A stretch of DNA of 64,000 bases from the human T2T-CHM13v2.0 reference genome, Homo sapiens. Location of the stretch: assembly GCF_009914755.1 (NCBI RefSeq), contig NC_060931.1; one strand, written 5' to 3'. The translations under genes were made by a program, and so were the position numbers. Below the pieces are notes generated by a model. That model was not told the DNA's origin, made no database searches, and saw nothing but the letters and a program-made list of their open reading frames with translations. Shown here piece by piece: positions 50,497 through 63,733 of the stretch; the stretch's first letter is position 1; the number at the start of each line of letters is the position of its first letter.

Positions 50497-50724
50497 GGTG
50501 TGACATTTAGGGTTGAAAATAATGATCTGGTAATTGCCCGAATCCTCCATGGGGGAATGATAGATCGACAAGGTCTACTTCATGTGGGAGATATAATTAA
50601 AGAAGTCAATGGCCATGAGGTTGGAAATAATCCAAAGGAATTACAAGAATTACTGAAAAATATTAGTGGAAGTGTCACCCTAAAAATCTTACCAAGTTAT
50701 AGAGATACCATTACTCCTCAACAG
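50497..50724 (+). CDS. PALS2: PALS2/MPP6 coding exon, aa 142-217 (GVTFRVENNDLVIARILHGG...SYRDTITPQQ), PDZ domain
   Basis: Acceptor tttttcatAG|GGT, donor CAG|GTTAGT. 228 nt with the PDZ motif LHVGDIIKEVNG. Confidence 0.97.
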
Positions 50725-59546: not shown

Positions 59547-61852
59547 AACCTTTGTTCTAGGATACAGATGATTCTTTTAAATCTTGCTTTTTAAGGTTTA
59601 TTAGGTATGATTGCAGGATGTAGTTTAGCTCATAACCCTTCTAAGTATTGTACCCCACCTCCTGTGAATTACGAAGGTTTTTCCACTTGGCCTGGTGAGA
59701 ACAGAAACTATTCTTGACCGTATACAACTTCTATATATAGTTCCCTGTAATGCTTTCAAATGATTCTTTACCATCATTGAGGAAAGAGCTACACAGAGAG
59801 AGGATGCAGGTAGCTTCCTCATACACATGCATTGATTAAGTACTCAGTTGAAAACAGAGGGAGTCCCTCACAATTCTCTCTCTGTGCAGCCTTTCCTCAC
59901 TGATACTGTATTCCATGCACTGTAACCACCTTGATCTCCCAGGTCTCCCAGTTCATCTCCTCAACTTAGAGACCATCAGGCTTCACCTTTCTCCCTTCCT
60001 GATTTGCAGCCTGGAAACCCTCTCTGCAGTTAGCTGGGGCAATTGTGCAGCTCATCTTGTTTCTTCCATCTTTTAGGATCACTATCTTCATTGCCTGATC
60101 TCGGACATCTTGAAAGACATTGTTTCACATATTTTGTCAACATAGTTTTTAGTTGTTTCATGTTGGAGGGTCCTTGTTACTTCATCTGAATCCAAATGGG
60201 AGTGATTTATCTTTATTACCTTAAAATTTTAATTTTTATATAGGTGAATCATTCCCATGGTTTGAAAATCAAAAAATGTAATATGTATTCAGTTGAGATC
60301 TCCCTCTGAATCCTTCCCACTACCAACCTAGTCCTCATCCCCCCACCAGTAACAAACTTTGCTATTAATTTATCTTTCCAGAATTTCTTCATTCATATGC
60401 AAGTAAATAAAAATTACATATCCTTTTTCACCTTTCACCTCCTTTTTCATAGAAAGGTTGCATAGTACACATGCTATTCTGAACCTTATTTTTTTTCACT
60501 TAACCATCTGTCTTGAGGATATTTCCTTATTGGTGCATACACTTCCTATTGACAAACACACACACACACACACTTTTTTAACGACTATATATAGTGCCAC
60601 ATCATGTAGACCTACCATCATTTGTTTCACCAGTTCCTTTTTGTTAAACAATTAGGTTGCTTCCAATCTTTTGTTATTAGGAATGATGTAGTCTTGTGCA
60701 TAAGTCATTTTGGATGTATCTGCATAACATAGCTGTTGAATACATTCCCAGACATGGATTACTAGGTCAGAGGGTTTATGCGTTTGTAATCTTGACAGCT
60801 ATTGCCAAATTGTCCTCCCAAGAGGTTGAACCATTCTTCCACAAGCCTATTAGGAAAATGCCTATTAACCCACAGTTCTTTTGTAGAATGTTATAAAATA
60901 CAAGGATTTCTGCTAATCTGATAGGAAAAAATGTTATAAAGTAGTTTTAATTTGTATTTCTACTCTGAGTGAGGTTGTTGAACATCTCCTATGCTTAAAA
61001 GCCATTTGTACTTCCTTTTCTTTGTACTTTAAATCATTTTGGTCATTCAGTTCTTTTTAGTAATAAGAATATGAAATAGAAATATTTTAGTAGGTGGTGT
61101 TTAGTTAATGATGAATGAACAGTTAACATCCATAGCCTATAAGTGCAACACTTTAAATTGCATTTAATAAAATATAATTATACTAAATCTAGTCATATCT
61201 TTAATGGTTTTAGAGTCATTACAAAATGGTTAGATCAAAGGTTGGGTTGATTTTTCAGACAAATTTTCAAAGTTCAAAGTAAAATCAGGTTAATCTGAGT
61301 TTTTGACCATAACAGTAATGTTCTAAAACTACTTTAATTAATGAAAAAAAAAAAATAAATTGTTCTATAAATCTTTTACCTTTGAGAGATGTGGTTTGTA
61401 TTCCACAGATAATGGCATTTCCATAACAATTTGACAGATGTTGGAGGAATGAATATTTGAAATTTGGACTATCTTGTAAAGTCTGAGCTTTATGGTTACA
61501 AAATATATTCTGTTCCACACATAAGAATGGTAATCACATTCATGGTTAGATGACAGGATTCTCTTGCTATTCTTCAATCACTGCATCTTTCTTGAGAAGT
61601 AAGGAGTATGCAGGTATTTTTATAACTTTGCATACCAATCCTTTTTCTCTGCCTGATCTCAAATACCTTTAACTTTTTGTTCTATCATTTATAACTTGCA
61701 GGTATTATACTTTGTGGACAATTAATTAGGGAGGTAGTTGCCTTACCAAATGAGTGAAGTAATAAAATGGTCTAGTAGTTTGTTTATATTTTCTTAATTT
61801 ATTATAAATTAAAAGTCTGGCTTTATTTATGCAATTACAAATATATTTTTAG

Positions 61853-61895
61853 AGTTTCATCAATATGGAGAGGCATCCAGCACACATCCCATCAG
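61853..61895 (+). other. PALS2: Candidate 43-nt cassette exon (SFINMERHPAHIPS plus 1 nt), frameshifting remnant of the PDZ-SH3 insert exon
   Basis: atatttttAG|AGTTTCATCAATATGGAGAGGCATCCAGCACACATCCCATCAG|GTATGC. GC-elevated unique island with canonical splice sites, and TGCATG at 62014-62019. Confidence 0.7.
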
Positions 61896-62458
61896 GTATG
61901 CTGTCATTCCAGAACATTCTCTGGTACTTCATTTTTCTGTCTTATCCGCCAACTAAATTTCCTTTGGTTAAATTTAATTATTTTGGTTTTTTCCCGTTGT
62001 CAAAACATGGAGCTGCATGACATTATCAAGTTAGCCAATTGTCACACTTTAGCAATCTTAATGTTTGTATGCTTGCTTTTTAGATCTAAAATTATATATC
62101 AGGAAAAAAATTATTGACCTACTGATTTAAGGATTAATATTTAGCTTTTCTAGAGTAGTTGAAAATGTTCTGAATGCTTTCTATGAAAATCATCTAATTA
62201 TAAATAACTAAGATTTTATTACATGTTCCCAGATTTCGTTATTTTAAAATTATTTTGTATGCATCGATCACAATACTTTTACCACACTAATAATATAATA
62301 TGTCTACTTGTGTTATTTGAATTTTGTTGGTTACAGAAGTATGATAAACAAATAGAAAAAGAACATTGTTATTTTGACTAATTGTGTACTTTCTTATTAA
62401 AGTTTACATGCTGATTAATGCTAAGGCAATTCTTTAGAAGATAACATTTGAATTTCTA

Positions 62459-63601: not shown

Positions 63602-63733
63602 GTATTTGTGAAGTGTCATTTTGATTATAATCCATACAATGACAACCTAATACCTTGCAAAGAAGCAGGATTGAAGTTTTCCAAAGGAGAGATTCTTCAG
63701 ATTGTAAATAGAGAAGATCCAAATTGGTGGCAG
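63602..63733 (+). CDS. PALS2: PALS2/MPP6 coding exon, aa 218-261 ([44 protein letters not shown]), SH3 domain, first part
   Basis: Acceptor gtgttttAG|GTA, donor CAG|GTTAGT. 132 nt with the MAGUK SH3 motifs FDY and WWQ. Confidence 0.97.

What the first reader, a model, noticed from the sequence alone, without database searches (positions are those of the whole stretch)
61853..61895. Hidden 43-nt cassette exon between PDZ and SH3: a 14-aa insert exon knocked out of frame by 1 nt (poison or dead exon)
Seen: a unique island tttttAG|AGT TTC ATC AAT ATG GAG AGG CAT CCA GCA CAC ATC CCA TCA G|GTATGC lies in the phase-0 intron between the PDZ and SH3 exons. It has a TGC about 21 nt upstream (61830-61832) and an RBFOX-type TGCATG 119 nt downstream (62014-62019). 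It is 43 nt long, and removing one C from the CCC run gives 42 nt = SFINMERHPAHIHQ, ending on the CAG|GT donor. As written, inclusion gives ...TPQQ-SFINMERHPAHIPSGICEVSF-stop (TGA 63622-63624). The alternative AG at 61853-61854 (41 nt) also stops early. Recalled knowledge, to be verified: mouse Pals2 has alpha/beta isoforms differing by a roughly 14-aa insert between PDZ and SH3 with a similar S-x-x-NMER sequence. Inference: the coding cassette was lost by frameshift in this lineage, or was repurposed as a tissue-regulated NMD switch or a source of truncated L27-L27-PDZ protein.
Basis: partly seen in the sequence, partly recalled or inferred. Interest (0 to 1): 0.8.

Follow-up and report, generated by a model that had tools for sequence, protein, structure and literature searches.

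The report
Frame-broken human PALS2 beta cassette exon
This is the human copy of a small alternative exon that adds 14 amino acids to the scaffold protein PALS2/MPP6 in other mammals, but here it has one extra base, so it can no longer encode that isoform and would cut the protein short if spliced in.

Summary
Window 61853-61895 is a 43-nt AG..GT island in the phase-0 intron between the PDZ and SH3 exons of PALS2/MPP6.

It is the ortholog of the 42-nt cassette behind the mouse PALS2 alpha/beta isoforms. 12 of 122 database proteins, all named as placental mammals, carry a 14-aa ....MERHP..... insert at this junction. An Old World and a New World monkey end it in I-H-Q. The human bases give that ending only if the C run at 61888-61890 had two Cs.

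Two unnamed ORFs read across the same intronic block in other mammals place the extra human base at that run. They also show conservation over about 61550-62141.

Inclusion gives a stop at 63622-63624, 109 nt before the next junction, so NMD or a 238-aa L27-L27-PDZ stub is predicted.

The mouse exon is regulated: SRSF10-dependent in oligodendrocytes and switching during myogenesis.

Still open: the date of the +1 (some time after the Old World monkey split), whether it is fixed in humans, and whether the exon is still spliced in. My text searches found no paper describing the human frameshift.

The parts
61853..61895 (+). 43-nt cassette exon, the human ortholog of the 42-nt PALS2/MPP6 beta-isoform exon. 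It reads SFINMERHPAHIPS plus one base.
   Evidence: It matches the 14-aa inserts of 12 mammalian proteins. It scores 59 against a next best of 24 in the intron scan. It is unique in the window and in the genome.
61888..61890 (+). CCC run holding the one extra base relative to other mammals (the +1 frameshift).
   Evidence: In P0125 and P0127 one open frame aligns to the human frame of 61813 up to the proline at 61888-61890. It aligns to the human exon frame from the proline at 61889-61891 onward. The monkey inserts end in I-H-Q.
61846..61852 (+). 3' splice site: a short T5 tract plus AG, preceded by an A-rich stretch. It is a weak acceptor. Possible branch-point As lie at 61825 or 61829 in TTTAT (inference only).
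   Evidence: Crude matrix score -7.4, with 428 of 803 intronic AGs scoring as high. The matrix frequencies were typed from recall, so only the ranking is meaningful.
61896..61901 (+). 5' splice site CAG|gtatgc, as strong as the donors of the constitutive exons.
   Evidence: score 4.8 against 0.7-7.0 for the five annotated exons; 8 of 701 intronic GTs score as high.
62014..62019 (+). TGCATG (RBFOX-type hexamer) 119 nt downstream of the donor.
   Evidence: It is not enriched in the window (32 against 35.7 expected). The residues of P0125 and P0127 at this place are compatible with the hexamer but do not prove it.
61550..62141 (+). Conserved intronic block around the exon, about 300 nt upstream and 245 nt downstream.
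   Evidence: tblastn of the unnamed ORFs P0125 and P0127 against the window. P0127 residues 1-47 match 61750-61890 at 77% identity without gaps. P0125 reaches 61550-62050. P0127 reaches 62141.
50497..50724 (+). Upstream constitutive exon (PDZ domain), ending ...TPQQ in phase 0.
   Evidence: and the hub annotation.
63602..63733 (+). Downstream constitutive exon (start of SH3), beginning VFVKC. After inclusion of the 43-nt exon it is read out of frame.
63622..63624 (+). TGA that becomes the premature stop when the 43-nt exon is included. It lies 109 nt before the 63733 junction.

Best explanation
61853-61895 is the human ortholog of the placental-mammal 42-nt cassette exon that lengthens the PDZ-SH3 linker of PALS2/MPP6 by 14 residues (the beta isoform). 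On the lineage to this human genome, after the split from Old World monkeys, one C was added to a C run near the 3' end of the exon. The exon is now 43 nt and can no longer make the beta isoform. Its splice sites, its GC-rich body and the conserved intronic flanks are intact. I therefore expect the spliceosome and the old regulators (SRSF10 in oligodendrocytes, the myogenic programme, possibly RBFOX) still to include it at some level. Each inclusion then gives a stop codon 109 nt before the next exon junction. That transcript should be removed by NMD, or at most yield a 238-aa L27-L27-PDZ fragment. My committed reading is a decayed coding cassette that acts, when used, as a passive unproductive-splicing exon rather than as a selected switch.

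Shown: identity, position, the +1 and the in-silico consequence.
Inferred: residual inclusion, NMD and the lack of selection.
For: Anatomy and frames.

Orthology:
- 12 of 122 database proteins carry ....MERHP....., and 11 of them run straight into VFVKCH.
- All 12 are named as placental mammals.
- The monkey inserts end I-H-Q (P0016, P0012).

Place of the extra base: one open frame in each of P0125 and P0127 matches two human frames that meet at 61888-61891.

Conserved flanks: about 61550-62141.

Exon-like composition: GC 0.47 against 0.29 in the flanks.

Donor: strong.

No frame-preserving alternative: no AG..GT/GC pair keeps both the conserved peptide and a good donor.

Mouse exon:
- 14-aa alpha/beta difference at the same junction (PMC12710781).
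- 42-nt cassette at chr6:50153857-50153898, listed as exon 9. Inclusion falls without SRSF10 and rises during oligodendrocyte differentiation (PMC12121360, text and supplement passages).
- 'Mpp6_42' is among the splicing transitions of C2C12 myogenesis (PMC2995044, passage).

Annotation: the hub's RefSeq table lists 9 human transcripts, none with an exon here.
Against: - No ape sequence and no second human haplotype could be reached. The +1 could therefore be private to this assembly or polymorphic.
- No transcript evidence was available. The absence of the exon from 9 RefSeq transcripts fits complete skipping as well as NMD-hidden inclusion.
- A word-index search for long proteins containing the frameshifted tail found nothing (weak evidence, only 2 candidates shared words).
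- The acceptor is weak by my crude score, so the exon may depend on activators and be silent in most tissues.
- Apart from the +1, the human exon differs from the snub-nosed monkey peptide at only one residue (F for C at position 2). This gives no sign of long neutral decay. It is compatible with a recent event or with continued constraint.
Confidence: 0.8

Rival explanations
1. Selected poison exon. The +1 turned a differentiation-induced coding cassette into a regulated NMD switch that lowers PALS2 dosage in the cell types where the exon is included, and this state is maintained by selection.
For: - The splice sites and about 600 nt of conserved flanks are intact.
- The premature stop satisfies the 50-55-nt rule.
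- The mouse exon is strongly included and regulated, so the regulators are in place.
- There is little decay besides the +1.
Against: - The frame-breaking state is not shared with monkeys or other mammals. It therefore lacks the deep conservation typical of established poison exons.
- No human transcript in the hub table contains the exon.
- No paper pairs MPP6 or PALS2 with 'poison exon' or NMD.
- The flank conservation is inherited from the coding era and says nothing about present selection.
Confidence: 0.12
2. Private or rare variant, or a homopolymer error, of this one assembly. Most humans would then have the 42-nt exon and can make PALS2 beta.
For: Only one human haplotype was examined. 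The change is a one-base length change in a short C run.
Against: - The hub's RefSeq table lists no human transcript with this exon. Monkeys, rodents, carnivores and others have predicted isoforms with it.
- A three-base run is not a typical error site (my own knowledge).
- From my own knowledge of genome-wide rates, a fixed indel since the Old World monkey split is far more likely a priori than a private one in 43 nt.
Confidence: 0.06
3. Source of a functional truncated protein. Inclusion yields a stable 238-aa L27-L27-PDZ fragment that competes for LIN7 and PDZ ligands.
For: The predicted product keeps both L27 domains and the PDZ domain (217 native residues plus a 21-residue tail).
Against: - The stop lies 109 nt before a junction and several more junctions follow, so NMD is expected (plus the established rule).
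- No long protein with this tail was found in the word-index search (weak evidence).
Confidence: 0.04
4. Chance pseudo-exon with no relation to the mammalian insert.
For: 33 other AG..GT pairs in the intron have splice scores as good. The acceptor is weak.
Against: - 12 of the 14 residues are identical to the snub-nosed monkey insert up to the frameshift, at the same junction.
- The scan score is 59 against a next best of 24.
- The flanks are collinear with other mammals.
Confidence: 0.01

Closest known systems
Mouse Pals2/Mpp6 42-nt cassette exon (alpha/beta isoforms; 'exon 9', 'Mpp6_42')
   Same: - Same junction (…TPQQ | VFVK…).
- Same peptide core MERHPAH, taking Mastomys P0032 SYVNMERHPAHVRQ as a murid stand-in.
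- Same phase-0 intron.
   Different: The mouse exon is 42 nt and frame-preserving. It is well included (junction-count pairs 743::797 and 713::257 in controls) and encodes part of the canonical 553-aa protein. The human exon is 43 nt and cannot.
Poison (NMD-coupled) cassette exons, such as those of SR-protein genes and SCN1A (named from my own knowledge)
   Same: A small cassette whose inclusion brings a stop more than 50-55 nt before a downstream junction. It has conserved intronic flanks.
   Different: Classic poison exons are conserved in their poisoning state. Here the poisoning state is derived and young, and the ancestral state was coding. Neither inclusion nor NMD sensitivity has been shown.
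PDZ-SH3 linker of the PALS1/MPP5 PDZ-SH3-GUK supramodule (PDB 4WSI, 7M4R)
   Same: It is the closest solved relative of PALS2. The insert falls in the PDZ-SH3 linker, between the end of PDZ and the first SH3 strand.
   Different: The PALS1 linker is fixed and shorter than that of PALS2 beta: there is a 9-residue gap in the alignment. No PALS2 structure with or without the insert was found, so the effect of the insert on the supramodule is inference.
RBFOX-activated exons with a downstream (U)GCAUG
   Same: TGCATG lies 119 nt after the donor. In the C2C12 set that includes Mpp6_42, FOX motifs within 250 nt downstream are enriched and conserved as a class (PMC2995044, passages).
   Different: - A single hexamer is at chance level in this window.
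- That paper does not attribute Mpp6_42 to FOX in the passages I saw.
- Its supplement could not be searched.

Membership tests
Ortholog of the PALS2/MPP6 beta cassette exon | Lies in the phase-0 intron between the PDZ exon (…TPQQ) and the SH3 exon (VFVKC…) | tested here: met
   hub annotation.
Ortholog of the PALS2/MPP6 beta cassette exon | Encodes the S/N-x-x-x-MERHP-x-x-x-x-Q type peptide | tested here: met
   The human exon reads SFINMERHPAHI and then shifts frame. 12 mammalian inserts are listed. Scan score 59 against 24.
Ortholog of the PALS2/MPP6 beta cassette exon | 42 nt, frame-preserving | tested here: not met
   It is 43 nt. Inclusion stops at codon 239. This is the finding itself: an ortholog by position and sequence, but not a working member.
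Ortholog of the PALS2/MPP6 beta cassette exon | Collinear flanking intron sequence in other mammals | tested here: met
   P0125 and P0127 align to about 61550-62141.
Poison (NMD-triggering) cassette exon | Inclusion creates a stop more than 50-55 nt upstream of a downstream exon junction | tested here: met
   The TGA at 63622-63624 is 109 nt before 63733, and further junctions follow (hub annotation).
Poison (NMD-triggering) cassette exon | Exon is seen in transcripts, and these rise when NMD is blocked | not testable with these tools
   No RNA data. None of the 9 RefSeq transcripts in the hub table contains it. One search found no protein with the shifted tail (weak evidence).
Poison (NMD-triggering) cassette exon | The frame-breaking state is conserved across species | tested here: not met
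   Of the 12 insert-bearing proteins, 11 run straight into VFVKCH and so keep the frame. The two monkeys are among them.
RBFOX-activated exon | (U)GCAUG within about 250-300 nt downstream | tested here: met
   62014-62019.
RBFOX-activated exon | Motif beyond chance and conserved | tested here: inconclusive
   32 matches in the window against 35.7 expected. The residues of P0125 and P0127 at the site allow the hexamer but do not fix it.
RBFOX-activated exon | Binding, or a response to RBFOX loss | not testable with these tools
   None. A search for MPP6 + RBFOX + exon + MAGUK gave two unrelated papers.

The most novel reading that the evidence does not exclude
A single added C in the ape or human lineage converted a conserved, differentiation-induced coding cassette into a differentiation-induced off switch. 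In mouse, SRSF10 in maturing oligodendrocytes, the myogenic programme and perhaps RBFOX shift PALS2 from alpha to beta. In human, the same regulators would send a sizeable share of PALS2 pre-mRNA into NMD. That would lower the dose of a scaffold that restrains myelin thickness in mouse. Humans would also lack the beta isoform altogether.
Probability: 0.15. Interest if true: 0.75.

Novelty: new member of a known kind. Interest (0 to 1): 0.5.

Why it matters
PALS2/MPP6 work is done almost wholly in mouse: Schmidt-Lanterman incisures, myelin thickness, cone photoreceptors and synapses. There the 553-aa beta form is treated as canonical.

If humans cannot make beta, mouse findings that depend on the longer PDZ-SH3 linker do not transfer. 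Isoform-specific reagents would also have no human target.

The exon is regulated in mouse oligodendrocytes and muscle. The human version is therefore a clean natural test of what happens to a regulated exon after it loses its frame: silencing, neutral leakage into NMD, or reuse as a dosage switch.

It is also a concrete, datable candidate for a lineage-specific isoform loss in primates.

Tried and rejected
- **Long proteins with the shifted tail:** I searched the word-indexed protein database with the 55-aa genomic ORF through the exon. Only 2 candidates shared words and none scored. This is weak evidence.
- **Exhaustive representative search**: 4 hits. P0126 and P0128 are unrelated repetitive proteins and were dropped. 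P0125 and P0127 were used.
- **Independent human or primate DNA:** I scanned genome contigs and viral contigs with the exon core. There were 0 matches, so no second haplotype or ape copy was obtained.
- **Processed MPP6 pseudogene:** one could have preserved the old exon state. I searched the whole assembly with monkey beta protein P0016. All 42 matches are exon-by-exon hits to MPP6 and its paralogs. The tool used a stricter first look, so this is a floor.
- **Paralogous cassette in MPP2:** the best window in the MPP2 PDZ-SH3 intron scores 25, which is background level.
- **Frame-preserving alternative splice-site pairs:** none keeps the conserved peptide together with a good donor.
- **Structured RNA or repeat explanation for the conserved block:** no Rfam match at E <= 1 in 61300-62400. 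There were no direct repeats and only two weak inverted pairs.
- **Papers not held:** Kamberov et al. 2000 and Zhang et al. 2008.
- **Supplement:** the supplement of PMC2995044 could not be searched. It may give the direction of the Mpp6_42 switch.
- **Reviews and other papers:** PMC7662862 and PMC10606877 (passages) and PMC2173254 (passages) say nothing on the isoforms. PMC7758463 (passages) is irrelevant.
- **Upstream TGC:** I know of no role for the 'TGC 21 nt upstream' and dropped it.

Full report
**1. The observation**

The window reads tttttag, then 43 nt, then gtatgc at 61853-61895. The exon translates to SFINMERHPAHIPS with one base left over.

The annotated upstream exon (50497-50724) ends …TPQQ. 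The downstream exon (63602-63733) starts VFVKC…. Both junctions are in phase 0.

Joining the annotated coding parts, the island and the next exon puts the first stop at codon 239. The tail is SFINMERHPAHIPSGICEVSF, and the stop is the TGA at 63622-63624, 109 nt before the 63733 junction. The 41-nt version from the second AG stops at codon 234.

TGCATG is at 62014-62019.

**2. Is it more than chance?**

The splice signals alone are not. I used a crude matrix with frequencies typed from recall, so only the ranking counts.
- The donor CAG|gtatgc scores like the constitutive donors; only 8 of 701 intronic GTs score as high.
- The acceptor is weak; 428 of 803 intronic AGs score as high.
- 34 AG..GT pairs of 25-149 nt in the intron, this one included, reach both scores.

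TGCATG occurs 32 times in the window on both strands, against 35.7 expected. 67 of 100 shuffles reach 32.

What lifts the island out of the background is its coding content.
- I scored every stop-free 14-aa window of the 12.9-kb intron, both strands, against seven mammalian inserts. This window scores 59 and the next best 24.
- Its GC content is 0.47, against 0.29 in the 200-nt flanks.
- Its core is unique in the window and in the whole 3.1-Gb assembly at up to 2 mismatches.

**3. What it is**

I searched with the PDZ exon for longer proteins. It gave 1372 proteins at E <= 1e-10 among 1462 candidates, of which the best 120 were listed. A second search used 40 residues around the insert of P0016 and gave 15 proteins among 51 candidates. 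Together they yielded 122 database proteins.

12 of these 122 carry a 14-aa ....MERHP..... insert, and 11 of the 12 run straight on into VFVKCH. The sources name them as:
- raccoon dog
- gerbil
- tamarin
- colugo
- snub-nosed monkey
- deer mouse
- snow vole
- Mastomys
- yak
- prairie vole
- pangolin
- black rhinoceros

In the rhinoceros model, the 12th protein, the sequence reads on into the intron after the insert.

75 of the 122 have the direct alpha-type junction. No protein named as a bird, reptile, amphibian, fish or marsupial has the MERHP insert.

The literature confirms the mouse facts.
- PALS2 alpha (539 aa) lacks 14 aa of the canonical beta (553 aa). The alpha junction peptide is DTITPQQVFVK (PMC12710781, passages).
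- A cassette at mouse chr6:50153857-50153898, which is 42 nt, is listed as Pals2 exon 9 (PMC12121360, supplement passages). That the 42-nt exon is the alpha/beta insert is my inference from size and gene.

**4. The extra base**

The snub-nosed monkey insert is SCINMERHPAHIHQ (P0016). The tamarin insert is SYINMERHPADIHQ (P0012). The human bases after …HPAHI give P-S and a spare G. They give the monkey ending H-Q only if the C run at 61888-61890 had two Cs.

An independent, DNA-like test came from the exhaustive representative search with the 55-aa genomic ORF through the exon. Two of its four hits, P0125 and P0127, are unnamed ORFs that read straight across the same intronic block in two other mammals.

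In each of them one open frame behaves the same way:
- It aligns to the human frame that starts at 61813, up to a proline at human 61888-61890 (81% and 73% identity).
- The same proline then starts the alignment to the human exon frame, at 61889-61891.

So the human sequence has one base more than both, at the C run. Read in the exon frame, both ORFs are compatible with …MERHPAHVRQ.

The +1 is therefore derived on the lineage to this genome, after the split from Old World monkeys. I could not narrow it further. No ape or second human sequence was reachable, and the protein databases are clustered too coarsely.

**5. Surroundings**

P0127 residues 1-47 match 61750-61890 at 77% identity without a gap. 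P0125 reaches back to 61550, and P0127 forward to 62141. The exon thus sits in a conserved intronic block of about 600 nt, which is usual for regulated alternative exons.

- The block has no Rfam match and no repeats of note.
- At the TGCATG site the two ORFs have residues whose codons can spell the hexamer. Protein letters cannot prove it.
- There is no processed MPP6 copy in the genome (a floor).
- There is no counterpart in the PDZ-SH3 intron of the closest paralog on contig 17.
- The closest solved structures are the PALS1 PDZ-SH3-GUK tandems 4WSI and 7M4R. The insert aligns to the PDZ-SH3 linker, opposite a 9-residue gap.

**6. How it most likely works**

In mouse the exon is a real, regulated coding cassette.
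- Its inclusion falls in SRSF10-deficient oligodendrocyte-lineage cells (listed difference -0.22 and -0.25).
- Its inclusion rises steadily during differentiation (PMC12121360).
- 'Mpp6_42' is one of the splicing transitions of C2C12 myogenesis (PMC2995044). As a class, that set has enriched and conserved FOX motifs within 250 nt downstream.

In the human sequence the splice sites and flanks are intact, so some inclusion is likely in the same cell types. This is inference. Every inclusion gives a stop 109 nt before the next junction, with further junctions downstream. By the established 50-55-nt rule that predicts NMD. Failing that, it predicts a 238-aa L27-L27-PDZ fragment.

I commit to this reading: a coding cassette inactivated by a +1, now a relic that is unproductive when used (confidence 0.8 for identity plus frameshift). 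A selected NMD switch is possible but has no support of its own (0.12). A private variant or assembly error is unlikely (0.06), because the hub's table of 9 human RefSeq transcripts has no exon here while many other mammals have predicted beta isoforms.

**7. Known or new**

The alpha/beta isoforms and the regulated 42-nt mouse exon are in print. I found no paper on the human frameshift. The searches were:
- Pals2 + isoform
- MPP6 + poison exon
- MPP6 + human-specific + exon + frameshift
- MPP6 + cassette exon + MAGUK
- Pals2 / Kamberov / alternatively spliced
- PALS2 + nonsense-mediated decay + exon
- MPP6 + Rbfox + exon + MAGUK
- MPP6 + exon inclusion + alternative splicing

These cover open-access full texts only. 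Supplements and subscription papers are not searched, and the state may be visible in genome browsers.

I file it as a new member of a known kind: lineage-specific loss of a conserved alternative coding exon, with possible unproductive splicing.

**8. Verdict**

The choice between dead exon and poison exon, and the date of the +1, remain open. Interest is 0.5.

Noticed in passing
window 63602-63733 (SH3 exon): 12 of 122 database proteins (turtles, two bats, a bird, a frog) join …PQQ directly to ASHVKEGG. These are annotated isoforms that skip this 132-nt in-frame exon and so lose the first part of the SH3 domain.
   Followed up: no
the same PDZ|SH3 junction in other vertebrates (proteins P0070-P0074, P0097): Anolis and Sceloporus models carry a different insert at this junction (ISLQQDELHSL…). 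A bichir protein has a 13-aa insert with an H-x-A-H-x-R pattern faintly like HPAHVR. The PDZ-SH3 linker may be a recurrent site of lineage-specific cassettes.
   Followed up: no
bird proteins P0050, P0051, P0055, P0063: These have a 17-aa insert VSSTF…FQ at the junction. It begins with the residues obtained by reading straight into the intron from the donor, so it looks like a gene-model artefact rather than an exon.
   Followed up: no
window 61779-62117 (+): A 112-codon stop-free frame runs across the exon in another frame. The public protein libraries hold 'proteins' (P0125, P0127) that are such non-coding ORFs, called across the conserved intronic block of other mammals.
   Followed up: partly
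own genome G000, contig 17 about 44.73 Mb; L006: The closest paralog has only a 685-nt intron between its PDZ and SH3 exons. It holds nothing like the MERHP cassette: the best window scores 25.
   Followed up: partly
window 61853-61858: Residue 2 of the insert varies among mammals (C, Y, or F in human). Residues 3-4 vary in rodents. MERHP-A/S-H/D is nearly fixed. The conserved core may be the functional part of the linker insert.
   Followed up: no
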